DNA of 64,000 nucleotides from Thermodesulfovibrio yellowstonii (GTDB taxonomy: Bacteria; Nitrospirota; Thermodesulfovibrionia; Thermodesulfovibrionales; Dissulfurispiraceae), in the NCBI GenBank assembly GCA_020724365.1, contig DYHD01000002.1, positions 393-64,392 of the forward strand, read 5' to 3'. The position numbers were made by a program, and so were the translations under genes. Below are positions 1,211 through 21,304 of this stretch, piece after piece. Position 1 is the stretch's first letter; every line of letters begins with the position of its first letter. The notes beneath the pieces were generated by a model. The model searched no databases and was not told the origin of the DNA. It saw only the letters and a program-made list of their open reading frames with translations.

Positions 1211-1213
1211 ATT

Positions 1214-1903: not shown

Positions 1904-3408
1904 TTAATTATAGATTAACTACCCTCAGTCCTATAATAATTAGCAAAAATGCAGGAGACCCTAATATGGTTGCTACAGATGACTATATACCAGGGGTTGC
2001 CTTACTTGGTGCTTTTGCAACAGAATTTATCAAGTGGAAAAAGATAGGTTCTTCGGCTCATACAGATGAAGCATTTTGTAACTGGTTTCTTAAAGGCAAG
2101 ATATTTTTTGATAACTGCTATATCAGCTATAGTGAATATGATAAGGAGTTTCCTACCCATCCACTGCCTCTCTGTCTTTGTGAGCTGAAATCAGATTCTG
2201 CCAATAAAGATGCAGTTATATTACATAACCTATTTAATTATGAAGACGATGAAATGCCTGTTACAGCATACAGACAACGATATGTTAATCTGGAAGAAAA
2301 AAGATTCTGTTTCCCCAAGAAATCTCTTAGTTTTCATCACGAAAGAGACTACCACAAAGGCTCATCAAAAGAGAGGATTATCTTCAATTATGAGCAGTTA
2401 GATAAGGCACAGACATTCAGAGGAGTCATAAAATCTGCCGAAAGCAAATATTTAGAGGATTTTATTACATTCTTTGGCAATGAGGTTGAACTCAGAATCG
2501 GAAAATCAAGAGCAACACAGTATGGACAAGTTAAGATTACTTTTGATACCTATCCCACCCAAAAACAAATTCAAAAACCACCAGATTCTGATGAGATAAT
2601 ACTTTTCTTCACATCTCCTGCAATATTTTTGAATGAATACGGGTTTTCTGCCGCAGACCTTCCAGTTATAACTAAATATCTTGACGCTGGTGTTGAAATC
2701 CAAAAGGCATTTTTAAAACAAGAGGAAATTGAGGGATATAGTGCAGTTTGGAAGACAAAGAAATCTCTTTTTAATGCAGTATTTGCAGGTTCTTGTTTAA
2801 AGCTAAATATCACTGAAAAAACTGCTCTTGAAACACTTGCCAAAATGCAAGCAACAGGCATAGGCGAAAAGACAAATGAAGGTTTTGGGCAGTTTCAAAT
2901 CATGCCTTCTGATATGGGGTGTCAGAAAACAATAACTATCAGAGATAATAAGCCCAAATATACAAGACCTAATGGAGATATCCCCCAAACAGTCTCAGAA
3001 GTAGTTAAAGAGATTGTTATAAAACACCTTATCTCCGAGGTAAAAGACAAAGCTATCAACGATTGCAATGAATTTTATAGGGCATCTTCACAATCAATTA
3101 CAAAATTTTTACTAAGCAGACTCGAATCTATGGTGTCTGCAACAGGCAATCTCGATATATCAACACTCCGCAAACCTGCAAGAGATCAATTAGAAAGCAT
3201 TCACAATGAAGAACAGACTCTTAAAGGATTGATTGACAAAAGAATTTCACTTACAGATGTCTATCAGAATACACAAAAACTATCTAAAGAGATTAATTAT
3301 AACCCAAATGCAGATAAAGATTTAACTAAAAAGCTCGAACGAGAGTATTGGCTTACATTCTTTGCATTCATGAGAAAGAGGCTTAAAGGAGGAGGTGACA
3401 GCATATGA
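1894..3408 (+). CDS. Cas5-family RAMP (Csx10-like), 504 aa, with a ~160-aa helical C-terminal extension (possible fused Cas11 small subunit)
   Basis: 'DYIPGVALLGAF' near the N-terminus and two G-rich loops 'RIGKSRATQYGQVKI' and 'GIGEKTNEGFGQFQI'. The tail from about aa 345 is rich in charged and helical-looking residues. There is no separate small-subunit ORF in the operon. Confidence 0.6.
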   Translation: MHLINYRLTTLSPIIISKNAGDPNMVATDDYIPGVALLGAFATEFIKWKKIGSSAHTDEAFCNWFLKGKIFFDNCYISYSEYDKEFPTHPLPLCLCELKSDSANKDAVILHNLFNYEDDEMPVTAYRQRYVNLEEKRFCFPKKSLSFHHERDYHKGSSKERIIFNYEQLDKAQTFRGVIKSAESKYLEDFITFFGNEVELRIGKSRATQYGQVKITFDTYPTQKQIQKPPDSDEIILFFTSPAIFLNEYGFSAADLPVITKYLDAGVEIQKAFLKQEEIEGYSAVWKTKKSLFNAVFAGSCLKLNITEKTALETLAKMQATGIGEKTNEGFGQFQIMPSDMGCQKTITIRDNKPKYTRPNGDIPQTVSEVVKEIVIKHLISEVKDKAINDCNEFYRASSQSITKFLLSRLESMVSATGNLDISTLRKPARDQLESIHNEEQTLKGLIDKRISLTDVYQNTQKLSKEINYNPNADKDLTKKLEREYWLTFFAFMRKRLKGGGDSI

Positions 3409-4760
3409 TAGAAAATATCATAGTATTGAAAGGAACTATCGAACTTCAATCACCAGCCTTGATAGGCTGCGGCAAAGATGACCATACTGATATTGATCTT
3501 ATAAAAGACTCAAAGGGTATCCCTTACATACCTGCCACCTCTCTGGTGGGGGTCTTAAGAGACTTTATAAAACCATCTTCAATGAATGAAGGTGTGCTTA
3601 AAGAATTTTGGGGCTACTCCGTCGATGAAAATTCACAACAGAGTTCTATTACTTGTGATGACCTAAAGGCAATTAATGGTGATGCTAAGCAATCACTTGT
3701 AGAGATAAGAGATGGCGTAGCCATTGATCCAAAGAAAAGCATTGTAGAGGATAAATCTAAATATGATTTCGAGATAATTAAAAAAGGAACAAGATTTTCC
3801 CTCTATTTAGAGGCAAGATGCAAACAAGGTAGAATAAATGAATATTCAAGATTTATTAGAACTATTGAAGCATCCCTCAACAATGGATTGATTAGAGTTG
3901 GGGCAAAGACAAACAGCGGTCTCGGCAGGCTCAAACTAAAGGATGACGCCATCTATATATTTGATTTCAAGGATAAAAAAGATGTTCTTTCATGGCTTAA
4001 GCAAGATTTTACAAATAAAAAACCTGCTGATGAAATCTTGCCATTGAATATTAAATCTAATGACTTCATAATTGAAGCAAGCTTAAGATTGAAAAACTCA
4101 TTTATCATTCGTTCATATCCATCTCTGCCAGAAGACCCAGATGCAGTGCATATCACATCCGCAGATGATTATGTCATACCAGGTTCCTCTCTTAAAGGAG
4201 CTTTAAGGTCAAGAGCTTTGAGAATTGTAAATACCATTGAAAAACCCTATTCGATAATCGAAAATCTCTTTGGAGATGTGTATAACGATGAACAGCAAGC
4301 AAAACAGAAAGGCAGGAAAAAAGGTGATGCCTTTAAGGGCAGGGTTACAGTCGAGGAAGTAATCTTGCCGAGATTTATCTCAGAGCTACAGACTCGTATA
4401 AAAGTTGACCGTTTCACAGGTGGGACGATTGCGTCTGCCCTGTTTGAGACAAAACCACTTTTCAGTTCAAATAATGAAGATATAAAACATCTCAAGATAA
4501 CGATAAAGAACTGCGAACCATACGAGGCAGGACTTATGCTTCTCACCCTAAAAGATCTCTTCACAGGAGACCTTGTAGTAGGTGGCGAAAAGAACATAGG
4601 AAGAGGAGTATTTGAAGGGTTGGGTGCAGAGATTAGTTATGACGGTAAGACAATCTCCATTGATGGCAGTCTCTCAAAATTGGAGCAAGACAAAATACTT
4701 ACACTTAATAATCTTGTAAAAGCCTTTGCAAATTTCAGTGGTGGAGGTGCATCGTGTTAG
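3405..4760 (+). CDS. Tandem Cas7-Cas7 RAMP fusion (Cas7-2x-like), 451 aa
   Basis: Two complete RAMP units: 'GIPYIPATSLVGVLRD' ... 'GAKTNSGLGRLKL' and 'IPGSSLKGALRSRALR' ... 'VVGGEKNIGRGVFEG'. 4-nt overlap with the upstream gene. Confidence 0.75.
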   Translation: MIENIIVLKGTIELQSPALIGCGKDDHTDIDLIKDSKGIPYIPATSLVGVLRDFIKPSSMNEGVLKEFWGYSVDENSQQSSITCDDLKAINGDAKQSLVEIRDGVAIDPKKSIVEDKSKYDFEIIKKGTRFSLYLEARCKQGRINEYSRFIRTIEASLNNGLIRVGAKTNSGLGRLKLKDDAIYIFDFKDKKDVLSWLKQDFTNKKPADEILPLNIKSNDFIIEASLRLKNSFIIRSYPSLPEDPDAVHITSADDYVIPGSSLKGALRSRALRIVNTIEKPYSIIENLFGDVYNDEQQAKQKGRKKGDAFKGRVTVEEVILPRFISELQTRIKVDRFTGGTIASALFETKPLFSSNNEDIKHLKITIKNCEPYEAGLMLLTLKDLFTGDLVVGGEKNIGRGVFEGLGAEISYDGKTISIDGSLSKLEQDKILTLNNLVKAFANFSGGGASC

Positions 4761-5305
4761 AGAACAATGGCTTAAAGCTGAAAAAAATTAAAAGCACTGT
4801 TTTGCCAGTAAATATTACTAAATCCCTAAAACAAGAGATTTCAGAAAGAATAAAATCTGATGCCTATGTTGTAGCCTATCTTGATTATGCAGTACTTATT
4901 GGAAAATTCAAAAACGACGAATTTCAATTTTACAATAATGAGCAGTTCCAAGACAGATTTGCCCAGAGAATTCGTATATTCCAAAATGATCGTGAACTGC
5001 ATATATGGCGTTGTAATGACAATAACTTCAAAGGGCGTCTGAGGATTGATGACGAAACAGGTGAAGAGACAGTTGCAGTTGATGCATATCAGGTAATGCT
5101 TGGTACTAATACAGAAAGACTCGGTGAATACACAAAGCTAATAGAAGAAAGAGGGGCTGAGTTAATCCTGCCATTGAAAAATATCTCAGTTGATGACAAA
5201 AAGAAAAGGCTTTTTCTAAAGACGAGGAACTACATCGGCTATAATCCAATACAGCAGGCAGGATATGTGGACTGCAGATTTGTAGAAATTACAGATAAAG
5301 CTTAG
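4754..5305 (+). CDS. Small non-RAMP type III subunit, Csx19-like by size and position (183 aa)
   Basis: No RAMP motifs. It overlaps the preceding gene by 7 nt and sits between the double Cas7 and the Cas7-insertion gene, as csx19 does in III-D loci (assignment by context only). Confidence 0.45.
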   Translation: MLENNGLKLKKIKSTVLPVNITKSLKQEISERIKSDAYVVAYLDYAVLIGKFKNDEFQFYNNEQFQDRFAQRIRIFQNDRELHIWRCNDNNFKGRLRIDDETGEETVAVDAYQVMLGTNTERLGEYTKLIEERGAELILPLKNISVDDKKKRLFLKTRNYIGYNPIQQAGYVDCRFVEITDKA

Positions 5306-5320
5306 AAGGAGTAAGAGAAA

Positions 5321-7318
5321 ATGGAAAAAGCAATAATATTTATAAAAGAAGTTAATAAAGGAAAATACAGTTGTAATATTCAATTCAAATCTTCAAACAA
5401 GACTATGCCTCTATCTGACTTTAAGCATTCAGACCCAATGTCTTTCAATGAAAAAGAAGTTGAGGTGCTTAGAGAGAAAGGACAGATTATGAAAATAGTC
5501 TGTGAAGGCAAAGAGATATACAATAAACATTCACCTAAAGGACTAACAAAGCTTCAAAAAGCACAAAGAAGTGCTTCTATTCAAAACCACAACCATTCAC
5601 CTGCAATCGCGCCATATAACTTTATCCCTCTTAACACAAAAGTAGTCCAAGCTGAGCGAATACCTGACTTTGATATTTATCATGCAGACAGATTTACAGG
5701 CTATATTGACCTCGATATAGAGAGCCTTACGCCATTATATATCAGAGACACACTGATGGATGAGGAGATTAAGCAAAGAGATGAAAATGATAGACAGAGA
5801 CAAAATGATGCAACTTGCTCAGTATATGCAAACCCCGATTTTTTCTCACCCGCTGGGCGCCTCCGCATACCCGGCAGTTCCTTGAGAGGCATGATAAGAA
5901 CAATGGTTGAGATAACGAGCTATGGCAAATTTGGATTTTATAATGATAAGAGGTTGTATTATAGGGGATTGGCTGATAAGAGTGAACTTAGAATAGAATA
6001 TCAGAAGAATATGTCATCCTTTGATAAAAATAGCAATAAAAATATCTATAAAATGTCAGCAGGCTATATATTCAAGAAAAATCTTAAATATTTCATAGTC
6101 CCAGCAAAAAATTATCGTCAGATTACTAAAGACGAAGCTAAAAAATTGATAAAAGAAATTGGTGGCAAATATAAAGAGTTCAGGTTCTATGATGTCAAAA
6201 CAGGCTTTATTGTAGTTTCTGGAGATATGAATAATAAAAAGAGAGATTGGTTTATTGAATATAAGGACACAGATCAAAAACCCATTGAGATTAATAGAAA
6301 AGACATCCAAGATTACAGAGATGACATTAACAGAAATAAAGATGTTCCAAACTTGCTCGAATTATCAAGAAAAGGTGAAGTGCCGTGTTTTTATACCAGA
6401 TATTTTGATAACAAAAGTATTCAAAGGGTCTCCTTTGGTCACACAGGCATGTTCAGGCTCGCTTATCGTCAGACAATAGGAGACCATATCCCTGCAAATC
6501 TTAAAGATGAACAAATTATTGACATTGCTGGAGCCATCTTTGGCAATGAAAAGACTTTTGCTGGTAGAGTATTTTTTGAGGATGCCTTTTGTTCAAGCAG
6601 TAAAGAAGATGCCCTCATGGGTGAGAGGACTCCTAATATCCTTGCAGGACCTAAACCCACGACATTTCAGCACTATCTTGAACAGGGTAGCAATAACCTC
6701 GAAAATCACCCTAAAAATCTTGCCCATTATAATTCCAATACCAACATCAGAGGCTATAAGCTCTATTGGCATAAGGGCGGAAATGAGTGGGAACAGCAAA
6801 ATCAACAAGAACTCAGAGAGCACCAGAGTCAATATACGAAGATTAACCCTGTAAAAGAAGGAGTTATGTTCAAGGGTCGGATAAGATTTGAAAACCTCTC
6901 TGAGATTGAACTTGGTGCATTACTTTTTGCCATTGACCTACCCGAAGGACTTGCACACAAGCTTGGCATGGGCAAACCATTGGGATTAGGCTCAGTCAGG
7001 ATTACACCAAAGCTTTATATCTCAGATAGAAGCAGCCGTTATTCTGATTTATCAACCGAGTGGGCTGAACCTATTGAAGAATCTTCTGACATAGATAAAT
7101 TCAAAAAAGCTTTTTCAGATTATGTGATTAAAAAATTAGGTGAGACAGCAAATACGCTCTGGGAGACCAAAAGGCTCGGAGAACTCAGGATAATGCTCGA
7201 TTTTATAAGTAAGCCATCTAATAATAGCACTCGATATATGAAAATAGAAGCTGGCAATAATAAAGACAATGAATTTAAAAATCGAAATGTTCTGCCTCGA
7301 CCTTCTGAAGTCAGATAA
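5321..7318 (+). CDS. Large Cas7-family RAMP with a big internal insertion (TIGR03986/all1473-like), 665 aa
   Basis: 'APYNFIPLN', 'RIPGSSLRGMIRTMVEIT' and the distal G-rich loop 'KLGMGKPLGLGSVRI'. About 190 aa of non-RAMP sequence lies between the core motifs, plus a ~95-aa N-terminal extra region. RBS-like 'aaggag' lies upstream. Confidence 0.7.
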   Translation: MEKAIIFIKEVNKGKYSCNIQFKSSNKTMPLSDFKHSDPMSFNEKEVEVLREKGQIMKIVCEGKEIYNKHSPKGLTKLQKAQRSASIQNHNHSPAIAPYNFIPLNTKVVQAERIPDFDIYHADRFTGYIDLDIESLTPLYIRDTLMDEEIKQRDENDRQRQNDATCSVYANPDFFSPAGRLRIPGSSLRGMIRTMVEITSYGKFGFYNDKRLYYRGLADKSELRIEYQKNMSSFDKNSNKNIYKMSAGYIFKKNLKYFIVPAKNYRQITKDEAKKLIKEIGGKYKEFRFYDVKTGFIVVSGDMNNKKRDWFIEYKDTDQKPIEINRKDIQDYRDDINRNKDVPNLLELSRKGEVPCFYTRYFDNKSIQRVSFGHTGMFRLAYRQTIGDHIPANLKDEQIIDIAGAIFGNEKTFAGRVFFEDAFCSSSKEDALMGERTPNILAGPKPTTFQHYLEQGSNNLENHPKNLAHYNSNTNIRGYKLYWHKGGNEWEQQNQQELREHQSQYTKINPVKEGVMFKGRIRFENLSEIELGALLFAIDLPEGLAHKLGMGKPLGLGSVRITPKLYISDRSSRYSDLSTEWAEPIEESSDIDKFKKAFSDYVIKKLGETANTLWETKRLGELRIMLDFISKPSNNSTRYMKIEAGNNKDNEFKNRNVLPRPSEVR

Positions 7319-7364
7319 AAATTTGCTTATTAGGTGGTTTGAGTGTTCAGTCCATAATCCGTAG

Positions 7365-7440
7365 TCATTGCGAGTGAAACGAAGCAATCTCGCCTTTTTC
7401 TTTAATATTGCCACGCATCCTTCGGATGCTCGCAATGACA
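7365..7440. repeat. Palindromic MITE/REP-like element with termini GTCATTGCGAG ... CTCGCAATGAC
   Basis: 11-nt perfect terminal inverted repeats at 7365-7375 and 7430-7440. Related 'GTCATTCC..' / 'GTCACACTGAGC' motifs occur at about 15.79, 17.98 and 22.35 kb. The spurious ORFs 7368..7634 and 7136..7459 translate it ('ARNDRK', 'RFTRND'). Confidence 0.7.
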
Positions 7441-7606
7441 GGAAGTCTGGGGACATCATACTTATTTCTTTTTACCACATTTCTTTCTGCATGGTTTTTG
7501 TTTTTGCAAAACCCTTCCCAAGTTTACTTCAAGGAAAAAGGTCTGCTGTCTGCGGTTTCTACTTTGCGTTATATGGTGTGGACAGCCATATGTTGAGAAA
7601 TTTATT

Positions 7607-8029
7607 TCAAAAGGTTAGATTCATATCAGCCTGAACAACGGTCTCCTTATAATAAACAGCAGGATTAGCCAGTTTGACACCATCGACAAAATCATCTTTT
7701 GACATCCCAAATAGAGGGACATTGAGAGGACAGGCAAGCATTTGAGCTCCCTCTTTATATAGCATAAAGAGAAGTTCTTCAACAGAAGGCAATTCCATCT
7801 CTTCCATCCTCTTCATTACTGCATCGCTTATTTCCTCCGACTGATCTGGCAGACACTTAAGTTCTTTCAGCCTTCCTTTATGGACAGCATTAACCCCTCT
7901 TGAGCCAAAAAATATTGTAACCCTTGAACCTTCTCTTAGAAGACTCAAAGCCGTCATAAGTGCGTTATATACCTGACATAGTTCATCATGAAAACACATT
8001 ATAGATACATTTTTGGTTATCTTCGCCAT
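7607..8029 (-). CDS. DsrE/DsrF-like family protein (COG2210, DsrE2/3-like), 140 aa
   Basis: Size and pattern of DsrE-fold proteins, with a conserved-looking Cys in 'MLACPLNVPLFGM'. 'aggag' RBS. Last gene of the DsrE-type operon. Confidence 0.6.
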   Translation of the reverse strand: MAKITKNVSIMCFHDELCQVYNALMTALSLLREGSRVTIFFGSRGVNAVHKGRLKELKCLPDQSEEISDAVMKRMEEMELPSVEELLFMLYKEGAQMLACPLNVPLFGMSKDDFVDGVKLANPAVYYKETVVQADMNLTF

Positions 8030-8071: not shown

Positions 8072-9223
8072 CTATGTGGATGCTGAGTTAGCCTTTACAG
8101 CCTCCCTCTTTTCCTCAGATCTTATTTTATTAATCATGAGAAAAGCATACATAGCTACGGCCATAACTATACTTGCATAGTTTACAGACGCTAACAAAGA
8201 ACTTGGATAATAGTTTCCATAAACATAAACTCCCAGAACCTGGGAGCCAACAAAGGCTCATATCATCCCCCACTTAGTAGGTGAAAATCTACTCTTCACA
8301 AAATCTTTTCTTAAATAATCACTGAGCAGATATATGCAAAAAATACCCCATGAGACTGCTGTCACATAAGACAAGTTGATTGAAAGAAATAATGAAGCAT
8401 CAACATTAATTGCAAAGTATTTTTGCAAATATAACATAAGCCTATAAAAACTCACCCCAAAAAGGCAAATAATTGGGATAACCATAAAATAAGCGGGCAA
8501 CAACGGAATGTCGGGTAATCTTGAGGATTTTATTTGGAGGTAAACCAAATATGATAGTTTAGTAACAAACAAGAAAACGCCGATACCTAACACAAATAAT
8601 GTTCCAAAGGCTGCAATCGAGGCTATTTCACTATTTATTGCAGTGGCTGCGATTCCTGAACCGGTTAAACAAACAAGGCCGAATGCAAAAACATCAAGCA
8701 GCCATGTAAAGTTTAATTTGTCGGTATCTACAGGGTTAGTGAGCCATATTTTGAGCACCTTGAATTCAAGTTTGAGAATAATGAGCCAAAGAGCCCCGAA
8801 GAAAAGCAAAGAAGGCAGCATCAGGGACTGTAAAATTGAAGACAATTGAGGCAAAAAAAATGCGAGAGGACCCCAAATTATATTTGCAGTCATAGATAAA
8901 GAAGCAATGGGCGAAAAAACCCCTATGTTGATTTTGGGATCATTTATAAAGGTATTATACTCTTCCTTATTTGCCAGCCACATTACAAGACTTTTAAGAA
9001 AAACCAATGTAAAAAGCAGATGGGTAACGGTAAATACGAGCATGATCCCAACTAAGGGAAAAAGGTGAATGTTTTGAGCTATGGTCAACTCAGACCATGG
9101 AATATCGAATAGCATAACCGGCTTACCCCAGCGTGGCTCTACAAACTGCAAATAAACAAAAGGCATTAAGGCAACGCCTCCAGCGGCTACTGATGTCTGA
9201 AAAATTATTGGTGTGAATTTCAT
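8072..9223 (-). CDS. TDT/TehA-like polytopic membrane protein with in-frame TGA at 8258-8260 (candidate Sec; the conventional ORF is 8258..9223)
   Basis: The 321-aa ORF is almost entirely hydrophobic helices and ends 'FSPTKWGMI' + TGA. The same frame continues for 61 stop-free codons ('AFVGSQVLGVYVYGNYYPSSLLASVNYASIVMAVAMYAFLMINKIRSEEKRE..') encoding further TM-like sequence. It ends at TAG 8072-8074, 42 nt before the next gene. The family call rests on overall topology and a 'W..F.G' C-terminal motif and is tentative. Confidence 0.5.
8230..8246 (-). promoter_or_regulatory. SECIS-like hairpin 11 nt downstream of the TGA at 8258-8260
   Basis: mRNA sense CUCCCAG-GUU-CUGGGAG, a perfect 7-bp stem. 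If the closing pair opens, the loop reads GGUUC. Confidence 0.4.
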
Positions 9224-9318: not shown

Positions 9319-9600
9319 TCAAAATGCCCCTATTACATTATCTTCCTTTATCATCAGGTCAACGAGCATATCATAATCAATTTTTTTGATATCTTTTTCT
9401 ATGTCTCCTTCGCCAAGCCCTCTGAGCCTTCTATCCTCATCAAGCAGATAAACCGTTCCGCAGAAACCCTCAAGGCGGTCTTTCACTGCGAAGTAAACCG
9501 CATTCTGGATAAGGCATATATCAGCAGCCATATCACGGGCTATTTTTATGCCCCTTTTACCTTCTGTTGTATCAGGGGCGGTTTTTATTATCACGAGCAT
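9319..9600 (-). CDS. DsrH/TusB-like protein, 93 aa
   Basis: Size, an 'MLVIIKTAP' type N-terminus and its position as third gene after DsrE- and DsrF-like ORFs. Confidence 0.55.
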   Translation of the reverse strand: MLVIIKTAPDTTEGKRGIKIARDMAADICLIQNAVYFAVKDRLEGFCGTVYLLDEDRRLRGLGEGDIEKDIKKIDYDMLVDLMIKEDNVIGAF

Positions 9601-9614: not shown

Positions 9615-9968
9615 TTAAAATATCATCGTTACATCTGTAGAGCTTAATATTTCAGCAATCTCAGAACTGCCTAACACCTTTACCCCGTCTATAAGATGTG
9701 TAGTCTCCATGCCTTCTTCCTTCAAAGAAGCCCTCTCTGCATATATTTCAACATTCATATCAATGCAGTCCTTTATCCCTTCTTCAATGCTTAAATATTC
9801 AGTATTGCTCGTATCCTGTCCCTTTCTTGCAGCATTAACACCGCCGTCAATTAAAATAAGATTAACTGAAATCCCCTCAGTTATGCCTCCAAGCGCATGC
9901 CTTATCGCCTCAGATGCGTCAATGGTGCCGTATGGTGGTTTTCTTAAAATAATATTTATACTCTCCAT
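9615..9968 (-). CDS. DsrF/TusC-like protein, 117 aa
   Basis: DsrE-fold pattern 'INIILRKPPYGT..A.EA.R.ALG' and 'LILIDGGVNAA'. Second gene of the E-F-H triplet. Confidence 0.6.
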   Translation of the reverse strand: MESINIILRKPPYGTIDASEAIRHALGGITEGISVNLILIDGGVNAARKGQDTSNTEYLSIEEGIKDCIDMNVEIYAERASLKEEGMETTHLIDGVKVLGSSEIAEILSSTDVTMIF

Positions 9969-9979: not shown

Positions 9980-10324
9980 TTATACACCAAAATTCAAAAA
10001 AATCGGTCGAGACTTTATCACATTAAAAAGCCCTTTCAAAGAACTCATCTCTCCACCTTTGACTGAATCCTCGCCCGCAAGACCGCGGTTCATCATACAC
10101 CCTGTTCATATATCAACCTTCAGTCCCCGCTCTACAAGGTCTTCCAAAGCCGATAATGATTTAGGAAGCTGCCCTTTTACAATTGAGAAGACGCCGTCAC
10201 CAGAGGCAATAAGCCTCACCTTTAGCCCCTTCTTTATTGCGATATCAGCAAGATTAAATATTGTGTGTGTATTTTCAAAACTATAGGGCGTTGTTGTAAG
10301 AAACATCACTATCTCCTTTTGCAT
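9980..10324 (-). CDS. DsrE/TusD-like protein with in-frame TGA at 10106-10108 (candidate selenocysteine); 114 aa if read through
   Basis: The listed ORF 10106..10324 (72 aa) stops at TGA. The same frame continues for 41 codons ('TGCMMNRGLAGEDSVKGGEMSSLKGLFNVIKSRPIFLNFGV') to TAA at 9980-9982, 11 nt before the next start. The result has normal DsrE/TusD length, and the TGA sits where the active-site Cys lies in the 'h-h-C-x5-RG' motif. Confidence 0.65.
10075..10088 (-). promoter_or_regulatory. Small hairpin with GGUCUU loop 17 nt downstream of the TGA at 10106-10108 (weak SECIS candidate)
   Basis: mRNA sense CCGC-GGUCUU-GCGG. It is only a 4-bp stem. The loop contains the GGUC that I recall from the E. 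coli fdhF SECIS apical loop. Confidence 0.3.
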
Positions 10325-10325: not shown

Positions 10326-10667
10326 TTAATGCCTCCTTTGTCCGGGATATACTCCCTTTTTTGTTACAGGACAACAAGCAGGGGGTGGCAATTCTTCCTG
10401 ATAATCTTTCCTGAGAATCTCCAGTATATCAGGCACTAAGGGGTCTCTGAGGAAATAACATCTGAGCCTTCCATCCATATAATAGTCAATTAAGCCGTGC
10501 GTTCTTAAAATAGTGAGGTGTTGCGAGGTATTAGACTGGCTGATTTCAAGGAATTCCTCAAAATCGCTTACACATTTTACCCCTTTGGTTAGTTCCTCCA
10601 GTATTTGTATCCTTACAGGATGTGCAATTACTTTTAGTAGTTCTGCTTTTTTCCCTAAAGAAAGCAT
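10326..10667 (-). CDS. ArsR/SmtB-family transcriptional regulator, 113 aa
   Basis: wHTH 'HPVRIQILEEL...CVSDFEEFLEISQSNTSQHLTILRTHGLI' and a C-terminal 'PPPACCP' cysteine pair. Its stop lies 1 nt from the DsrE-like start. Confidence 0.8.
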   Translation of the reverse strand: MLSLGKKAELLKVIAHPVRIQILEELTKGVKCVSDFEEFLEISQSNTSQHLTILRTHGLIDYYMDGRLRCYFLRDPLVPDILEILRKDYQEELPPPACCPVTKKGVYPGQRRH

Positions 10668-10869
10668 ATCTCAAATACCCTTTTATTTATGACTACCAAA
10701 TATTATGTTTTAGGCTGTAAAAATGGCTTATAATTATTCCCTGCTTATGGAGATTATATTTTGAAACTTGAATTTTCTTATGTTAGAATATCTTAATATT
10801 TTAATATATTGTTTTGTCAATGTAAAAAATTACTCCATTTTGGAAATTTTGATTCATAAAGGAGGAATT

Positions 10870-12009
10870 ATGCGTAAGCCTGTCTATCTCGATTATAATG
10901 CAACAACCCCTCATGATGCTGAGGTTATCTCTGCAATGCGACCATATTTAGAGGAACATTTCGGCAACCCCTCAAGCTCTCACCAATATGGGCTAATCTC
11001 AAGAGAAGCCATAGAATTAGCTAGAAGACAGATTGCATCATTGTTAAACTCTTACCCTGAAGAGATTGTGTTTACAAGTGGTGGGACTGAATCTAATAAT
11101 CATGCTATAAAAGGCATTGCCTATGCTAATTTACATCGAGGCAATCATATAATCACATCTCAGATTGAACATCCTTCGGTAACAGATGTTTGTGAATACC
11201 TTCGTAAAAATGGTTTTGAGATTACATATATACCTGTAGATGAATCAGGGCTTGTGAATCCCACTGATATCGAAAAGGCAATTACAAACAGGACAATTTT
11301 AATAACTATCATGCATGCCAATAATGAAGTGGGCACAATTCAACCAATAGAAGAGATTGCTGAAATAGCTTCAAAAAATGGCATAATTTTTCATACAGAT
11401 GCAGCTCAGTCTCTTGGAAAGATCTTAGCGGATATCAATTCATTGAGAGTTGACCTCCTTACCATAGCCGGTCATAAATTATATGCACCAAAAGGAGTCG
11501 GTGCCCTTTATATTAAACAAGGCACTGTCCTAACAAAGTTAATGCATGGAGCAGGTCAGGAAAGAGGCATAAGAGCTGGAACGGAGAATGTCCTTGAGAT
11601 TGTCGGGCTGGGCAAGGCATGTGAGATAGCAAAAAGAGATTTTGATAAAAATTATATGCAGATGCAACAGACAAGAGACATGCTATATCTTACACTCAAA
11701 GAAAAGATAAAAGATTTGAGACTTAACGGGCATCCTGAAAAAAGACTTCCAAACACCTTGAGTATCAGCTTTAAAGGTATAAATGCTAATTCCCTTATTT
11801 CAAAAATCAAGGACTATGTAGCGGTCTCTGCTGGTGCTGCGTGTCATTCTGGTGTGGAAAAAATATCTTCCGTCTTGACGGCTATGAGAGTCCCATATGA
11901 GTGGGCTAAAGGCACAATACGATTTTCAACAGGCAAGATGACCACCGATGAAGAGATTCAATATGCTATTGGAGTTATCTCGGAAACTATAAATTCACCT
12001 CATCTCTAA
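10870..12009 (+). CDS. Cysteine desulfurase (NifS/IscS class V aminotransferase)
   Basis: 'VYLDYNATTP', 'FTSGGTESNN', 'TIAGHKLYAPKGVGALY' (PLP-Lys), 'SAGAACHSG' (active-site Cys). I place the start at the ATG 10870 preceded by 'aaggagg'. The ORF-track start 10768 (TTG) adds an implausible AT-rich leader. Confidence 0.85.
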   Translation: MRKPVYLDYNATTPHDAEVISAMRPYLEEHFGNPSSSHQYGLISREAIELARRQIASLLNSYPEEIVFTSGGTESNNHAIKGIAYANLHRGNHIITSQIEHPSVTDVCEYLRKNGFEITYIPVDESGLVNPTDIEKAITNRTILITIMHANNEVGTIQPIEEIAEIASKNGIIFHTDAAQSLGKILADINSLRVDLLTIAGHKLYAPKGVGALYIKQGTVLTKLMHGAGQERGIRAGTENVLEIVGLGKACEIAKRDFDKNYMQMQQTRDMLYLTLKEKIKDLRLNGHPEKRLPNTLSISFKGINANSLISKIKDYVAVSAGAACHSGVEKISSVLTAMRVPYEWAKGTIRFSTGKMTTDEEIQYAIGVISETINSPHL

Positions 12010-12027: not shown

Positions 12028-12801
12028 TTATTTCACCTCGTGGCTAAGTCCAATATAATAAACCTGAGGCTTTGAGTTGTAACCAGGACTTAATACTGTA
12101 ACCCTATTGGTTTTGACGATCTTAGTAACTGGATCATCAGGATTATGGATGTTTCCTATCTTTCTGGCGCCGAAGGCACATGCATCAACACAAGCGGGTT
12201 GCAAGCCTCGAGTTATGCGATGATAGCAAAAGTTGCATTTCTCTGCGACATGTAAAATAGGATGTATAAATCTTATGCTGTATGGACAATTTGAAATGCA
12301 GGCTGAGCAGCCAATACACCATTTTCTATCGACTAGAACAACGCCATCGCTTGTTTTGTAAGTTGCTCCAACAGGGCAAACTTCTACGCAAAGAGGGCGA
12401 TCGCATTGATTACATAGTTTAGGTACAAACATTCCTTTAGCTATATCTACATTGGGGACTTCTATCCCAAGCGGATTATTTCTAATAAACCCGTCACGTC
12501 CCTGTTTTGGGGAGTCAACAATCATTTTGCCATCTTTTTTGATTATATATCTTTCTATCCATGTTCGGGCTAAATTTATATGATAGGGAAGCTCATTTTC
12601 AATCTGACATGCCTTGACGCACATACCGCATCCAATACATTTAGTTGAATCTACGAGGAATATCCACCTGATGTTAGATTGTTTTGCAATATCTGCTTTG
12701 GCTTCTGAAGCTAAAAACTCTATGGCACCTAGTGGCAGTGACATGCCAGCTATAGTTATAATTCCAGCCTTTAAAAAATCTCTTCTGGAGTGTTTATTCA
12801 T
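12028..12801 (-). CDS. Periplasmic 4x[4Fe-4S] ferredoxin-type subunit (NrfC/PsrB/DsrO-like) with Tat signal
   Basis: 'SRRDFLKAG' twin-arginine motif. Cys clusters 'CIGCGMCVKAC', 'CNQCDRPLCVEVCP', 'CIGCSACISNCP', 'CNFC....PACVDAC'. Confidence 0.8.
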   Translation of the reverse strand: MNKHSRRDFLKAGIITIAGMSLPLGAIEFLASEAKADIAKQSNIRWIFLVDSTKCIGCGMCVKACQIENELPYHINLARTWIERYIIKKDGKMIVDSPKQGRDGFIRNNPLGIEVPNVDIAKGMFVPKLCNQCDRPLCVEVCPVGATYKTSDGVVLVDRKWCIGCSACISNCPYSIRFIHPILHVAEKCNFCYHRITRGLQPACVDACAFGARKIGNIHNPDDPVTKIVKTNRVTVLSPGYNSKPQVYYIGLSHEVK

Positions 12802-12811
12802 ATTCGTATCC

Positions 12812-13312
12812 TCACTTAATATTAGCCTTATGGGGGTTATGACACGCTATACATTCCATTTCTGGATTATGGTTATCAGGGTCTATCAACTTGAGTTTAA
12901 TATCCCCTTTTGGCAATTCGGAGTATTGTGTCGGACGATAGGGAAGGTCTGAATGACATCTTAGGCAAAGCCCTCTGCCCTTATCGATAGCAAGTTTAGT
13001 GGGATTGTCGGGGTGATCAATTGCAGGTCCATGACAGCTCTCGCAAGAAACTTTTGCATGCAAAGATGCCTCTACTTGTTTAAACTCATTTGCGTGGCAG
13101 TCCATGCAATATGAATTGCCGCGATATTTCACCTTGAAGTCTTTCCACTCCTGCTGGTTTGCAAAACGGTGCCATTGATATCTGTAATCATTATTAGCAG
13201 CCTTGAAGGATGGAGCTATAATCATTCTGGCTCCGACAATACCCGCTACCCCTATAATGGTAATAAGAACTAAGGCAATTAATATTTTTCCAAGTCCAAT
13301 TTGACCTTTCAT
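12812..13312 (-). CDS. Membrane-anchored tetrahaem c-type cytochrome, 166 aa
   Basis: N-terminal TM helix plus four CXXCH motifs (CMDCH, CESCH, CLRCH, CIACH). Confidence 0.8.
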   Translation of the reverse strand: MKGQIGLGKILIALVLITIIGVAGIVGARMIIAPSFKAANNDYRYQWHRFANQQEWKDFKVKYRGNSYCMDCHANEFKQVEASLHAKVSCESCHGPAIDHPDNPTKLAIDKGRGLCLRCHSDLPYRPTQYSELPKGDIKLKLIDPDNHNPEMECIACHNPHKANIK

Positions 13313-13332
13313 TTATATAATCTCCTCACAAA

Positions 13333-14520
13333 TCATTCTTCATCCCTTTCGTCTTTATCAAGGGGTAGATATTTTATGCCGAGCATATATCCTGTCCAAA
13401 TAAAACCAAGTAAACCAATGCTGTAAGCAATTTCTACAAGACTGGGGGTATAAGATGCAAGTTCATAGAGAGAGCCTCCAAGCTCATTGTCAAAAGGAGT
13501 GAAGGCAAGAAAAGGAACAAGCTGACCTACGATAATAAAATCATATCGTCCAATATAAAGCCCTACTACCACTAGAAGACCGGCTAACGCCATCTTATTG
13601 ATATCCTTGAATCTTGAATAGACCAATAATGCAATTGGTATCAAATAAGTCATTAAAACTTCGCCGACCCAGAAATTCAAAGAGAATTTGCCTGTCAAGA
13701 GTATGAAAGCCTCTTTTTTGTGTGCATAATGACTTGAGACCACCTTCCAATATAAAAAGAAAAGGGCGATCACGAGAAGATAAACCAGCATCTTGCCAAT
13801 TATCCGAAGTGACTCTTTAAGCTTTTCACTCATTTGTGCGCCTGTCATCTTATATGTGTATGTGGTTATAAATATAATCATAGCTGAAGATGTAAAAAGA
13901 GCTGATAGAAGGAAATATATGGGATAGTATGGTCCAAACCATAAAGATCTTGAATAGTTGAGCCCAAAGATAGCACCATGGTAGCTGTGCACTACAACAG
14001 CTGCAACAAATGCCACTATTGCTACAACCTTGACAAGCAAGTCATGATGTCCCCTTTTTATAACAAGATATAGTTCAAGTGAGATTAAAAGTATATAAAG
14101 CGTGATGCTCATTGCTACTACTCCCATAGGAGCCGTGAAATGAGTGGTCAATAACAAAAAAGGCGCCCTAAGCGGTGAAGCCAAATCTGCTGCTACGCTT
14201 AAGACGCCTGCCACAACGATAATTACTGCAAGATAAAGAGCCCTGCGGCTGATGACATCAAATTGTTTAAAGCCTAAAACTATACCGAATGAGGAAATAT
14301 AACTTAATCCGATGCTGGAGATAGCAAAAGCATAATTTACAATAAAAATACCCCATGGAACTTCTTTGCTGGTAGCGAGTGCGTGATGACCGAAAATCGC
14401 TATATGGACTCCGCCATATAAGAACCCTGCCAGCATAATCAAACCCGCTACCAAGCTTAGCATAAACCATCTAGATTGAGGCTCAGCCTGAGAAGCAGTC
14501 AAAAGCTGTTCTGTTCGCAT
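13333..14520 (-). CDS. NrfD/PsrC-family integral membrane quinone-interacting subunit, 395 aa
   Basis: Polytopic hydrophobic protein of NrfD size, immediately upstream of the cytochrome c and FeS subunits (typical NrfD-type module). Confidence 0.65.
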   Translation of the reverse strand: MRTEQLLTASQAEPQSRWFMLSLVAGLIMLAGFLYGGVHIAIFGHHALATSKEVPWGIFIVNYAFAISSIGLSYISSFGIVLGFKQFDVISRRALYLAVIIVVAGVLSVAADLASPLRAPFLLLTTHFTAPMGVVAMSITLYILLISLELYLVIKRGHHDLLVKVVAIVAFVAAVVVHSYHGAIFGLNYSRSLWFGPYYPIYFLLSALFTSSAMIIFITTYTYKMTGAQMSEKLKESLRIIGKMLVYLLVIALFFLYWKVVSSHYAHKKEAFILLTGKFSLNFWVGEVLMTYLIPIALLVYSRFKDINKMALAGLLVVVGLYIGRYDFIIVGQLVPFLAFTPFDNELGGSLYELASYTPSLVEIAYSIGLLGFIWTGYMLGIKYLPLDKDERDEE

Positions 14521-20368: not shown

Positions 20369-21304
20369 TTAGGAGTTTAGAAGGTCATCATAAGGATATT
20401 CCCTTAAAAATGTGAGGAATTCAGTAACTGCATGTGATATGATTGCATTTTTATTCATGACAAGATAAAAGTTTCTATTAAGTCTGCCTTCTTTGATGCT
20501 CAATGCCACCAGACTACCATATTTAATCTCTTTTCTTATAACCCATTTCGATACAATAGAGATGCCCATACCACTTTCTACAGCTTCCTTAATAGATTCT
20601 GTGCTGCCAATAGTTATTGCAAGGTTTATATCTTTAAATTTAAGACCTTTTGATGAGAAATATTTTTCAGTTACTTGTCTCGTTCCAGATCCATCTTCTC
20701 TTGTTATAAAAGGTTCCTTTGTAATCTCTGCAAGCGAAACCACCTTTCTTTTTACCCATGGATGATTTTGGGGGATAATAAGAAAAAGCTCATCCTGTAT
20801 TATAGGTTCAAGCGTCACCTTATATTTTGACATTTCTCCTTCAACAAGCCCAAATTCAATTGCACCTGTATTAAGAAGTTCCATAATTTTTCTGGTGTTT
20901 TCTATGTATATATTCATCTTAACTTTGGGATGCATTTTCTTGAAATCGAAGATAACGGTTGGAAGGATATGATTACCAATGGTTGTGCTAGCTCCAATAG
21001 TTACATTACCTTTGGTATGTCCTGTTATTTTAGCAATCTCTTTTTCAGCAGCCGAGTAAAGCGCAAGGATATATTTTGCATATTTATAAAGAACCTCGCC
21101 TGAAGGAGAAAGACTAATAGTGTTGCTTGTTCTATCGAAAAGTTTAGTCTCATAATATTCTTCCAGAGCTTGAATCTGCAGACTTACGGCAGGTTGTGTG
21201 AGATGGACAATCTCTGATGTCTTTGAGAAACTTTTGGTTTCAGCAACGGTGCAGAAAACTTTTAATTTATGATCTTCTAAGCTCATAATGAGTAATAATA
21301 ACAT
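20369..21304 (-). CDS. LysR-family transcriptional regulator
   Basis: N-terminal HTH 'LKVFCTVAETKSFSKTSEIVHLTQPAVSLQIQALE' plus a substrate-binding domain. The true start is possibly ATG 21286. Confidence 0.85.
   Translation of the reverse strand: MLLLLIMSLEDHKLKVFCTVAETKSFSKTSEIVHLTQPAVSLQIQALEEYYETKLFDRTSNTISLSPSGEVLYKYAKYILALYSAAEKEIAKITGHTKGNVTIGASTTIGNHILPTVIFDFKKMHPKVKMNIYIENTRKIMELLNTGAIEFGLVEGEMSKYKVTLEPIIQDELFLIIPQNHPWVKRKVVSLAEITKEPFITREDGSGTRQVTEKYFSSKGLKFKDINLAITIGSTESIKEAVESGMGISIVSKWVIRKEIKYGSLVALSIKEGRLNRNFYLVMNKNAIISHAVTEFLTFLREYPYDDLLNS

What the first reader, a model, noticed from the sequence alone, without database searches (positions are those of the whole stretch)
8072..8260. 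TGA in a TDT/TehA-like membrane protein followed by 61 stop-free codons of TM-like sequence and a perfect 7-bp hairpin
The 321-aa membrane ORF stops at TGA (8258-8260) after '...RFSPTKWGMI'. The frame stays open for 61 more codons in AT-rich DNA. It encodes 'AFVGSQVLGVYVYGNYYPSSLLASVNYASIVMAVAMYAFLMINKIRSEEKREAVKANSAST', which looks like further transmembrane sequence plus a charged tail. It ends 42 nt before the next gene, whereas the conventional stop leaves an unexplained 228-nt gap inside a tight operon. Exactly 11 nt after the TGA lies CUCCCAG-GUU-CUGGGAG (8230-8246). The spacing and the GGUU(C) apex resemble a bacterial SECIS. I am not aware of a selenocysteine described inside a channel or transporter of this family.
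Basis: partly seen in the sequence, partly recalled or inferred. Interest (0 to 1): 0.75.

Follow-up and report, generated by a model that had tools for sequence, protein, structure and literature searches.

The report
Known selenoprotein TsoY membrane channel gene
The in-frame TGA is almost certainly a genuine selenocysteine codon in a ten-helix membrane channel, but this selenoprotein family (TsoY) was described in 2025 and has a curated NCBI model, so this is a correct re-annotation, not a discovery.

Summary
The read-through product scores 522 bits against NCBIfam NF047643 'selenoprotein TsoY' (cutoff 250) and carries the published UxxV motif (U-A-F-V). In 50 homologous genes from named genomes the codon is TGA in 45 and TGC/TGT in 5. 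All 14 full-length database homologues have Cys there, and the extension is conserved. The hairpin is present in 45 of 46 TGA forms and in none of the Cys forms, although both encode the same G-S-Q-V-L-G peptide. It shows compensatory changes, and its GGUUC apex sits at nt 21-25, against GGUC at nt 22-25 in the E. coli fdhF SECIS. A confident AlphaFold model (pLDDT 88.7) has the SLAC1/TehA ten-helix fold. The extension supplies the rest of TM9 and all of TM10, and Sec322 sits in the TM9 break. The same operon holds a second selenoprotein gene (DsrE-like, UxxC). Elsewhere TsoY neighbours DsrE-like proteins, SelD, NifS and ArsR/LysR regulators, which suggests selenium or sulfur trafficking. Verdict: real Sec recoding in an already known family. 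Function is untested, and the genome's Sec machinery could not be checked.

The parts
8072..9223 (-). Full tsoY gene: 383 codons including Sec322, ending at TAG 8074..8072
   Evidence: Translation. NF047643 'selenoprotein TsoY' scores 522.4 bits against a cutoff of 250, covering model positions 1-363 of 366. Pfam SLAC1 PF03595 scores 36.2 bits against 27.9. The AF2 model has pLDDT 88.7 and 10 TM helices.
8258..8260 (-). UGA selenocysteine codon (Sec322) in the motif U-A-F-V
   Evidence: It aligns with an invariant Cys in 14 full-length homologues. The codon is TGA in 45 and TGY in 5 of 50 genome loci. The UxxV motif is listed for TsoY in PMC13188914.
8228..8248 (-). SECIS-like hairpin: 9-bp stem (7 Watson-Crick pairs at 8246..8230 plus 2 G-U pairs) with apex G-GUU-C
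   Evidence: Fold. It is conserved in 45 of 46 Sec forms and absent from 5 Cys forms. On the alignment, 93.8% of cells are paired, 3 pairs show compensatory changes, and 0 of 500 shuffles reach the observed covariation score. The apex sits at nt 21-25 from the U of UGA, against 22-25 in E. coli fdhF.
8075..8257 (-). 61-codon C-terminal extension, encoding the second half of TM9 and all of TM10
   Evidence: A323, V325, G326, V329, L330, Y333 and A355 are invariant in A1. Helices H324-337 and H342-382 appear in the model. Foldseek aligns about 375 columns to SLAC1/TehA.
9980..10324 (-). Second selenoprotein gene of the operon: DsrE/TusD-like, 114 codons, UGA at 10108..10106, motif U-T-G-C (UxxC)
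   Evidence: Translation. Pfam DsrE hit on the N-terminal part. The Nitrospiraceae locus L055 keeps the TGA and the downstream frame at 82% identity. Sec (KL-U-GSCMDARGL) and Cys (V-C-GSCMDARGM) forms occur next to TsoY in other genomes. 'DsrE-like protein, UxxC' is a listed selenoprotein family.
10075..10088 (-). Candidate SECIS of the DsrE-like gene: CCGC-GGUCUU-GCGG, 17 nt after the UGA
   Evidence: Sequence. The L055 orthologue forms a 7-bp version. Sec forms in 8 other loci carry a GGGUC-loop hairpin at the same place, and 3 Cys forms do not. In the window itself the hairpin is weak and is not part of the MFE structure.
9615..9968 (-). DsrF/TusC-like gene
   Evidence: Pfam DsrE PF02635 54.6 bits. 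TIGR03010 36.9 bits, below its cutoff.
9319..9600 (-). DsrH/TusB-like gene
   Evidence: Pfam DsrH PF04077 39.1 bits.
7607..8029 (-). DrsE_2 (DsrE2-like) gene, 42 nt downstream of the tsoY stop
   Evidence: Pfam PF13686 58.2 bits. It is also adjacent in L001.
10326..10667 (-). ArsR/SmtB-family regulator, first gene of the operon
   Evidence: NF033788 75.5 bits against a cutoff of 55. The TsoR model scores only 31.4 against 115. An ArsR gene lies next to tsoY in 28 loci.
10768..12009 (+). Divergently transcribed NifS/IscS-like cysteine desulfurase. The true start is probably the internal Met near 10870.
   Evidence: TIGR03402 475 bits, below its cutoff of 530. NF002806, the IscS subfamily model, scores 311 against 304. 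A NifS-like gene neighbours tsoY in 15-20 loci.
20369..21304 (-). Selenium-metabolism-associated LysR-family regulator, 11 kb from tsoY. It is context only and is not shown to act on this operon.
   Evidence: NF040786 291.9 bits against a cutoff of 250. A LysR gene lies near tsoY in 19 other loci.

Best explanation
The gene at 9223..8072 (minus strand) encodes a 383-residue member of the known selenoprotein family TsoY, a ten-helix inner-membrane protein with the SLAC1/TehA anion-channel fold. The UGA at 8260..8258 is recoded as selenocysteine. The hairpin that starts 9-11 nt downstream, inside the coding sequence, acts as a bacterial SECIS. It would recruit SelB with Sec-tRNA(Sec), so translation continues through TM9 and TM10.

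Shown here: the Sec/Cys pairing, the conservation of the extension, selection on the hairpin at the RNA level, and the fold.

Inferred: Sec322 sits in the mid-membrane break of TM9, one of the five pore-lining helices. That places it at or within one helical turn of the gate residue of SLAC1/TehA (F450/F262). TsoY would therefore be a channel or transporter whose pore carries a reactive selenol. The protein probably moves or captures a chalcogen species (a selenium or sulfur compound, possibly an oxyanion as in the tellurite-linked TehA). It would hand the chalcogen to cytoplasmic DsrE-family carriers, one of them itself a UxxC selenoprotein encoded in the same operon. A NifS-like enzyme, and SelD in other genomes, act downstream. 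An ArsR-type regulator would control the operon.
For: Family membership:
- NF047643 scores 522 bits against a cutoff of 250, and the match covers the extension.
- The UxxV motif and the family are listed in PMC13188914.

Sec/Cys pairing:
- 14 of 14 full-length homologues have Cys at the aligned column, with conserved residues beyond it.
- Among 50 genome loci from Bacillota, Thermodesulfobacteriota, Actinomycetota, Coriobacteriia, Fusobacteria and Anaeromyxobacter, 45 have TGA and 5 have TGC/TGT. The frame stays open 41-65 codons beyond the TGA in all but one of the TGA loci (95 in L045).

SECIS:
- Mean MFE is -12.2 kcal/mol for the 46 Sec forms and -6.4 for the 5 Cys forms (Mann-Whitney p = 4.6e-4). 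The hairpin is predicted in 45 of 46 Sec forms and 0 of 5 Cys forms.
- The Leu codon within the stem is YTG in 46 of 46 Sec forms and 0 of 5 Cys forms, for the same peptide.
- 93.8% of cells are paired, three pairs show compensatory changes (for example CAA..TTG to CAG..CTG), and 0 of 500 shuffles reach the observed covariation score.
- The GGUUC apex lies at nt 21-25, against GGUC at nt 22-25 in E. coli fdhF, computed from NC_000913.3.

Fold:
- The AF2 model has pLDDT 88.7 and pTM 0.89. U322 lies between H315-320 and H324-337.
- Foldseek top hits are SLAC1 (7en0, 8gw7) and TehA (3m73), with TM-scores of 0.56-0.74 over about 375 columns.
- In SLAC1 the odd-numbered TMs line the pore, and gate F450 and kink P451 lie on TM9 (PMC10645844).

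Context:
- Within 3.5 kb of tsoY, 26 loci have a DsrE-like small protein (Sec or Cys active site), 20 have SelD, 15 have NifS, 28 have ArsR and 19 have LysR.
- This operon contains a second UGA gene with a SECIS-like hairpin.
- A selenium-metabolism-associated LysR regulator lies in the window.
- TGA is otherwise an ordinary stop codon here.
Against: - No selA, selB, selC or selD was found in the 64-kb window. There is no tRNA at all, and no such hits appeared among the 46 distinct ORFs scanned against NCBIfam.
- The rest of the genome could not be reached. The source is not among the genome representatives; the best match is 68% identical.
- Sec insertion is not shown at the protein level.
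- The placement of Sec322 at the channel gate rests on helix order, the modelled helix break, and a W+4 pattern (TehA W258..F262, TsoY W318..U322). Sequence and profile alignments between TsoY and TehA fail, and Foldseek gave no residue-level alignment.
- The substrate is unknown, and the neighbourhood evidence cannot separate sulfur from selenium.
- The hairpin overlaps conserved coding sequence, so part of its conservation comes from protein-level constraint.
- Only 5 Cys forms, from about 4 lineages, serve as the control.
Confidence: 0.9

Rival explanations
1. The TGA is a true stop. The gene makes a 321-residue, eight-helix protein, and the downstream 183 nt is a decaying remnant (pseudogene tail) or untranslated spacer.
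For: Gene callers and the databases list the product as 321 aa (P0001 and about 100 of the 120 listed relatives, at 298-348 aa). No Sec machinery is seen in the window.
Against: - The tail is conserved at the amino-acid level across phyla, with invariant residues.
- It stays open in 45 independent TGA-containing genes.
- It matches the curated model through position 363 of 366.
- It is needed to complete TM9 and TM10 of the fold.
- A truncation at the same codon in 45 genomes, always TGA and never TAA or TAG, is not decay.
Confidence: 0.03
2. The TGA is read through, but by a standard amino acid (near-cognate Trp or Cys, or a suppressor tRNA) rather than by selenocysteine. The hairpin merely slows termination.
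For: Nothing here shows directly which residue is inserted. Stimulatory hairpins exist for SECIS-independent read-through.
Against: - The site pairs only with Cys in homologues, the signature of Sec.
- The hairpin has the apex sequence and spacing of the fdhF SECIS.
- The gene repeatedly sits beside selD and other selenoprotein genes.
- The family is curated as a selenoprotein.
Confidence: 0.04
3. The TGA is a sequencing or assembly error for TGC or TGG.
For: The window is a single assembly. Metagenome bins can carry errors.
Against: A Logan assembly contig has the identical sequence (L001), though it may come from the same sample as the window. Relatives at 96%, 93% and 79% identity from other collections have the same 321-aa call. 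The co-occurring SECIS hairpin is found only with TGA.
Confidence: 0.01

Closest known systems
Selenoprotein TsoY (NCBIfam NF047643; subfamily NF047644 'TsoY family (seleno)protein'). Attributed to Haft & Tolstoy, mSystems 2025, by the review PMC13188914.
   Same: The score is 522 bits against a cutoff of 250 over the whole model. There is one Sec, in a UxxV motif. The protein is a SLAC1/TehA-type membrane protein, and Cys-containing paralogous forms exist.
   Different: The family takes its name from the 'three selenoprotein operon' (tsoABC with tsoR, tsoX). Here no TsoA, B, C or X candidate is present, and the ArsR regulator fails the TsoR model at 31 bits against 115. The gene sits instead in an ArsR / DsrE(Sec) / DsrF / DsrH / TsoY / DrsE_2 operon that recurs in a Nitrospiraceae genome (L055). 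I could not read the original paper, so I do not know whether this context is already described.
TehA / SLAC1 (Pfam PF03595; PDB 3M71-3M7L, 7EN0, 8GW7)
   Same: It has the same ten-helix fold, with TM-scores up to 0.74 over about 375 aligned columns, and the Pfam match is above the gathering score. TehA is linked to a chalcogen oxyanion (tellurite).
   Different: Sequence identity is only 10-16%, and no hit appears in sequence or profile searches of the PDB. TsoY has Sec or Cys in the TM9 break, about where SLAC1/TehA have the gate Phe (an inference). No anion conductance or tellurite phenotype is known for TsoY.
YeeE/YedE with TusA/YedF (thiosulfate and putative selenium uptake). A Sec form of YeeE/YedE (GUxSG) is listed in PMC13188914.
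   Same: Each is a membrane transporter with reactive Cys or Sec residues, encoded beside a small sulfur- or selenium-carrier protein, often near selD. The 106-aa neighbours of TsoY weakly match the C-terminal domain of YedF (24-28 bits).
   Different: The fold and family are unrelated. The partner here belongs to the DsrE family rather than TusA. This is a functional analogy only and was not tested.
DsrE-like selenoprotein (PF02635, UxxC) and the TusBCD/DsrEFH sulfur relay
   Same: The operon's first structural gene is a DsrE-fold protein with U-x-x-C at the position of the catalytic Cys. DsrF-like and DsrH-like genes follow in the TusD-C-B order.
   Different: All three genes score far below the curated TusBCD/DsrEFH cutoffs, so they are not orthologues of the tRNA-thiolation or Dsr complexes.
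E. coli fdhF SECIS (the bacterial SECIS prototype)
   Same: A hairpin lies inside the coding sequence immediately 3' of the UGA. The apex GGU(U)C lies 21-25 nt from the U of UGA, against GGUC at 22-25 in fdhF.
   Different: The stem is shorter and perfect. It lacks the bulged U of fdhF (stated from my own knowledge of the fdhF literature). SelB binding was not tested. Rfam has no matching bacterial SECIS model.

Membership tests
Selenoprotein TsoY (NF047643) | Score at or above the curated equivalog cutoff over the full model | tested here: met
   522.4 bits against 250, covering model positions 1-363 of 366 and protein residues 2-363.
Selenoprotein TsoY (NF047643) | Single Sec in a UxxV motif | tested here: met
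   U322-A-F-V325. The motif is as listed in PMC13188914.
Selenoprotein TsoY (NF047643) | Genomic association with the tso operon (TsoA/B/C, TsoX, TsoR) | tested here: not met
   The ArsR regulator scores 31.4 bits against the TsoR cutoff of 115. The window contains only two plausible in-frame-TGA genes, tsoY and the DsrE-like gene. TsoA does lie beside TsoY in 6 Thermodesulfobacteriota-type loci. This is a context feature, not part of the HMM definition.
Bacterial selenoprotein gene (general) | In-frame UGA aligned with Cys in homologues, with conserved sequence on both sides | tested here: met
   14 of 14 full-length homologues have Cys. Of 50 genome loci, 45 have TGA and 5 have TGY.
Bacterial selenoprotein gene (general) | SECIS hairpin just 3' of the UGA, with a G/U-containing apical loop about 16-37 nt from the UGA | tested here: met
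   The 9-bp helix begins 9 nt after the UGA, and the apex GGUUC lies at nt 21-25. It is conserved with covariation and absent from the Cys forms. The spacing range comes from my own knowledge of bSECIS models.
Bacterial selenoprotein gene (general) | Genome encodes selA, selB, selC (tRNA-Sec) and selD | not testable with these tools
   None was found in the window. The rest of the genome is unavailable. Indirect support comes from a second SECIS-bearing UGA gene and a selenium-metabolism-associated LysR regulator.
Bacterial selenoprotein gene (general) | Selenium actually incorporated at the UGA | not testable with these tools
   This needs 75Se labelling or mass spectrometry.
TDT / TehA / SLAC1 family (PF03595) | Pfam match above the gathering threshold | tested here: met
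   36.2 bits against 27.9, covering residues 3-365 and profile positions 2-329 of 331.
TDT / TehA / SLAC1 family (PF03595) | Ten TM helices arranged as five hairpins, with the odd-numbered helices lining the pore | tested here: met
   The AF2 model has ten long helices. Foldseek finds SLAC1 and TehA as the only hits with E at or below 0.012. The inner and outer helix assignment is taken from PMC10645844 and was not measured on the model.
TDT / TehA / SLAC1 family (PF03595) | Gate phenylalanine on TM9 (HiTehA F262, AtSLAC1 F450) | tested here: inconclusive
   Sec322 lies in the TM9 break, four residues after the invariant W318, just as F262 follows W258 in HiTehA. No reliable residue-level alignment could be obtained.

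The most novel reading that the evidence does not exclude
TsoY is a 'reactive-pore' chalcogen channel. Its selenocysteine would replace the gate phenylalanine of the SLAC1/TehA fold on TM9 and transiently bond a selenium or sulfur species as it crosses the membrane. It would then pass the chalcogen to a DsrE-family Sec/Cys carrier and on to NifS and SelD. That would be a selenium-acquisition route analogous to, but evolutionarily unrelated to, YeeE/YedE with TusA/YedF. In this Nitrospirota-like lineage it is wired into a DsrE(Sec)FH-like relay rather than the tso operon. The family is known, but I found no evidence that its mechanism or substrate has been established.
Probability: 0.25. Interest if true: 0.6.

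Novelty: already known. Interest (0 to 1): 0.25.

Why it matters
For annotation, the database copy identical to this gene's 321-aa product (P0001, listed from NCBI and Logan), like most of its relatives, is recorded as a truncated 321-aa hypothetical protein. The correct product is a 383-aa selenoprotein, and the DsrE-like gene upstream is truncated in the same way.

For biology, TsoY has no assigned function. Several observations here point to a role in moving selenium or sulfur across the membrane, and they give concrete residues to mutate:
- The Sec lies in the break of a pore-lining helix.
- A DsrE-like Sec/Cys partner neighbours the gene in about half of the loci.
- SelD, NifS and selenium-associated regulators recur nearby.

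None of this changes the fact that the recoding event and the family are already described.

Tried and rejected
- I could not read the primary paper (Haft & Tolstoy 2025; PMC12013261, doi 10.1128/msystems.01417-24). It is not held. I relied on the 2026 review table instead.
- A first literature search for 'TsoY' alone returned only unrelated uses of the word.
- Rfam found nothing at either UGA, at gathering or permissive thresholds. Rfam appears to have no bacterial SECIS model, so this is uninformative.
- Sequence and profile searches of the PDB with the TsoY alignment found nothing, even at E = 10.
- I tried hhalign and hmmsearch of the TsoY profile against E. coli TehA to map Sec322 onto gate F262. 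They gave only a spurious TM5-to-TM9 match, consistent with the internal five-fold pseudo-symmetry. The gate equivalence therefore stays an inference.
- A PDB search with the DsrE-like protein returned designed PPR repeat proteins. These are summed low-complexity matches and I rejected them. The only family-consistent hit was YchN at E = 0.0085.
- I looked for the source genome to check for selABCD. The exact-protein look-up returned only a 2-kb Logan contig. The genome collection holds no close relative: the best match is 68% identical, plus a contig-end fragment from Nitrospiraceae UBA665.
- I scanned the whole window for other in-frame TGA genes. There were 41 raw candidates, and only the two in this operon look like coding sequence on both sides.
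- I considered genetic-code reassignment (TGA read as Trp or Gly). I rejected it because TGA terminates 10 of 43 long ORFs.
Full report
**Observation.** On the minus strand, an ORF runs from ATG 9223 to TGA 8260..8258 (321 codons, ending ...RFSPTKWGMI). The same frame stays open for 61 more codons (8257..8075) up to TAG 8074..8072, which lies 42 nt before the next start codon at 8029. CTCCCAG-GTT-CTGGGAG lies at 8246..8230, 11 nt after the TGA. With two flanking G-U pairs it forms a 9-bp helix at 8248..8228. Taken alone, the hairpin is not statistically remarkable: z = -1.67, and 11 of 200 shuffles fold as well. The case therefore rests on comparison with other genomes.

**Family.** I translated the read-through product with Cys in place of the stop and scanned it against NCBIfam. 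It scores 522.4 bits against NF047643 'selenoprotein TsoY' (curated cutoff 250), and the match runs through the extension to model position 363 of 366. It also matches the broader NF047644 'TsoY family (seleno)protein' and Pfam SLAC1 PF03595 (36.2 bits against 27.9). A 2026 review of prokaryotic selenoproteomes lists 'Selenoprotein TsoY, NF047643, motif UxxV, one Sec'. It attributes the family to Haft & Tolstoy, mSystems 2025, together with the 'Tso (three selenoprotein operon)' (PMC13188914). The window sequence reads U-A-F-V. I could not read the primary paper.

**Sec/Cys test.** A search of the large protein collection returned 209 relatives. Most are 319-325 aa and cover 84% of the query, so they are cut at the same place. 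A minority are 373-388 aa and cover 96-100%. In an alignment of 14 of these full-length proteins, every one has Cys opposite the TGA (...QWG(L/M/I)V-C-A(L/F)VGSQVLGVYV...). Residues A323, V325, G326, V329, L330, Y333 and A355 of the extension are invariant.

At the DNA level I recovered the site in 50 loci from named genomes. They include Desulfosporosinus, Thermincola, Mesobacillus selenatarsenatis, Anaerobacillus arseniciselenatis, several Thermodesulfobacteriota, Actinomycetota, Coriobacteriia, a Fusobacteria bin and Anaeromyxobacter. The codon is TGA in 45 and TGC/TGT in 5, never TAA or TAG. The frame stays open for 41-65 conserved codons beyond the TGA in all but one of the TGA loci (95 in L045). 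This is the classical signature of a selenoprotein gene.

**SECIS test.** The hairpin overlaps codons for the conserved peptide G-S-Q-V-L-G, so the Cys forms are a natural control: same peptide, no need for a SECIS.
- The hairpin is predicted in 45 of 46 Sec forms, including the window, and in none of the 5 Cys forms.
- Mean MFE of the 42 nt after the codon is -12.2 kcal/mol for Sec forms and -6.4 for Cys forms (Mann-Whitney p = 4.6e-4).
- Codon choice makes the difference. The Leu codon in the 3' arm is YTG in all 46 Sec forms. In the Cys forms it is CTT, TTA, CTA, TTA and TTA.
- On the 46-sequence alignment the 9-bp helix has 93.8% of cells paired.
- Three pairs show compensatory double changes, including the loop-closing pair A-U to G-C. 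In the window this is CAG..CTG where most genomes have CAA..TTG.
- None of 500 column shuffles reaches the observed covariation score, and sliding the partner by one column drops pairing to 65-70%.
- I extracted E. coli fdhF from NC_000913.3. Its UGA is codon 140, and its apical loop GGUC lies at nt 22-25 counted from the U of UGA. The TsoY apex GGUUC lies at nt 21-25.

Rfam has nothing to say, because it contains no matching bacterial SECIS model. Two caveats apply. There are only 5 Cys controls, from about four lineages. Part of the conservation also reflects protein-level constraint.

**Artefacts.** A Logan assembly contig carries the identical TGA and downstream sequence, though it may come from the same sample as the window (L001). 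Relatives at 96%, 93% and 79% identity from other collections are also 321-aa calls. TGA is an ordinary stop in this organism. It ends 10 of 43 ORFs of 200 aa or more in the window, and the DsrH-like and DrsE_2 genes of this very operon. So the TGA is neither an error nor a reassigned codon.

**Structure.** AlphaFold2, run on the 15-sequence alignment, gave a confident model (mean pLDDT 88.7, pTM 0.89) with ten long helices. Residue 322 falls in a three-residue break between H315-320 and H324-337, which together make TM9. H342-382 is TM10. Foldseek against the PDB finds only SLAC1 (7en0, 8gw7), SLAH complexes and TehA (3m73, 3m7b) as meaningful hits, with TM-scores of 0.56-0.74 over about 375 aligned columns. 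A 321-residue product would lack half of TM9 and all of TM10.

In SLAC1 and TehA the five odd-numbered helices line the pore, and TM9 carries the gate Phe (AtSLAC1 F450, HiTehA F262) next to a helix-breaking kink at P451 (PMC10645844). HiTehA reads W258-A-F-S-F262-G, and TsoY reads W318-G-M-I-U322-A, with W318 invariant. By helix order, the modelled break and this W+4 pattern, Sec322 sits at or within a turn of the gate position. This is an inference. Profile and HMM alignments between TsoY and TehA fail, and I had no residue-level structural alignment.

**Operon and context.** With the two read-throughs, the minus-strand genes are tightly packed:

| Gene | Coordinates | Gap to next gene |
|---|---|---|
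| ArsR regulator | 10667..10326 | 1 nt |
| DsrE-like | 10324..9980 | 11 nt |
| DsrF-like | 9968..9615 | 14 nt |
| DsrH-like | 9600..9319 | 95 nt |
| tsoY | 9223..8072 | 42 nt |
| DrsE_2 | 8029..7607 | (last gene) |

A NifS/IscS-like cysteine desulfurase is transcribed divergently at 10768..12009.

The DsrE-like gene also contains an in-frame TGA, at 10108..10106. It reads ...GLKVDI-U-TGCMMNRGL... and continues for 41 more codons. The Nitrospiraceae UBA665 locus L055 has the same ArsR, DsrE(U), DsrF, DsrH, TsoY order. It keeps that TGA at 82% protein identity and has a 7-bp CCCGCG-GUCU-UGCGGG hairpin after it. 'DsrE-like protein, UxxC' is a long-known selenoprotein family. So this operon encodes two selenoproteins, which supports the view that the organism decodes Sec.

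Across the 55 fetched loci, the recurrent neighbours within 3.5 kb of tsoY are as follows.

| Neighbour of tsoY | Loci | Notes |
|---|---|---|
| ArsR-family regulator | 28 | |
| Small DsrE-like protein | 26 | Often only 14-70 nt away; Sec form ...KVKL-U-GSCMDARGL in 8 loci, CxxC forms in the rest |
| SelD | 20 | 290-320 bits against a cutoff of 125 |
| LysR regulator | 19 | |
| NifS-like desulfurase | 15 | |
| TsoA | 6 | Thermodesulfobacteriota-type loci |

The Sec forms of the DsrE-like neighbour carry a GGGUC-loop hairpin that the Cys forms lack. In the window itself, a 'selenium metabolism-associated LysR family regulator' (292 bits against 250) lies 11 kb away at 20369..21304. No selA, selB, selC or selD was found in the window.

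**Mechanism.** Shown: the UGA is a conserved Sec/Cys site, an RNA hairpin selected only in the UGA forms follows it at fdhF-like spacing, and the product is a complete SLAC1/TehA-fold membrane protein. Inferred: SelB-dependent Sec insertion, with the selenol lying in the pore on TM9.

Proposed, from gene neighbourhoods and by analogy with YeeE/YedE plus TusA/YedF: TsoY conducts or captures a selenium or sulfur species. It hands this to the DsrE-family carriers encoded beside it, feeding NifS-type and SelD-type chemistry under ArsR/LysR control. The substrate is unknown, and sulfur cannot be separated from selenium on this evidence.

**Comparison and novelty.** This is a member of a described and curated family, and it passes every sequence-level membership test. 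The one feature not met is the tso-operon context. No TsoA, B, C or X candidate is present, and the regulator fails the TsoR model. That is a neighbourhood feature rather than a definition of the protein family. The DsrE(Sec)FH, TsoY, DrsE_2 arrangement, shared with a Nitrospiraceae genome, may or may not be in the original paper. I therefore rate the finding 'already known'. Its practical value is as an annotation correction. Its modest residual interest lies in the unexplored mechanism: a Sec at the putative gate of an anion-channel fold, paired with a DsrE-like Sec/Cys partner.

**Verdict.**

| Item | Rating |
|---|---|
| Observation | confirmed |
| Confidence that this is a genuine TsoY selenoprotein gene with a functional SECIS | about 0.9 |
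| Interest | 0.25 |

Noticed in passing
window 9980-10324 (-), TGA at 10106-10108: A second in-frame TGA lies in the same operon, in a DsrE/TusD-like gene. It reads ...KVDI-U-TGC... (UxxC) and continues for 41 codons to a TAA. A CCGC-GGUCUU-GCGG hairpin follows at 10075-10088. The TGA and the frame are conserved in Nitrospiraceae locus L055. Sec and Cys forms of similar DsrE-like genes sit next to tsoY in other genomes.
   Followed up: yes
window 20369-21304 (-): This ORF matches NF040786 'selenium metabolism-associated LysR family transcriptional regulator' above its cutoff (292 bits against 250). No selD, selA or selB lies next to it here; its immediate neighbour is aroE.
   Followed up: partly
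window 12028-14906 (-): Beside the NifS-like gene lies a cluster on the opposite (minus) strand. It encodes a TtrB/DsrO-like 4Fe-4S protein, a multihaem c-type cytochrome, an HmcC/NrfD-like membrane protein and a 119-aa ORF with no family match. It looks like a membrane redox module without an obvious catalytic subunit. It may be linked to the sulfur/selenium operon.
   Followed up: partly
window 71-7318 (+): Type III-D CRISPR-Cas effector genes are present (Csx10-like, Csx7-like, Csx19, and a TIGR03986 RAMP at 442 bits). They end just beside the tsoY operon. I did not look for a CRISPR array.
   Followed up: partly
window about 7360-7450 (-): The intergenic region downstream of the DrsE_2 gene contains an inverted repeat, GTCATTGCGAG ... 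CTCGCAATGAC, with arms about 50 nt apart. It could be a REP-like element or a terminator.
   Followed up: no
window 44949-45209 (+): A cobalamin riboswitch (Rfam RF00174, 82 bits) lies upstream of a ThiC/BzaB-like gene (45339-46694) and cobT (47322-48383). This suggests B12 lower-ligand biosynthesis under B12 control.
   Followed up: partly
L016 and L018 (Mesobacillus selenatarsenatis SF-1), L017: The selenate-respiring M. selenatarsenatis carries two tsoY loci on different contigs. In at least one of them (L016), and in the related MAG locus L017, tsoY is flanked by a 106-aa CxxC protein upstream and a TusD-like CxxC protein downstream, with selD and a LysR gene nearby. This organism is cultured and could be used to test TsoY function.
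   Followed up: partly
TsoY residues 174-190 compared with E. coli TehA residues 259-275: The only local sequence similarity between TsoY and TehA pairs TsoY TM5 (VFAFGLVSLTGTGI) with TehA TM9 (SFSFGVSALATTGL). This is consistent with the five-fold internal pseudo-symmetry of the fold. It also warns against naive alignment of these families.
   Followed up: no
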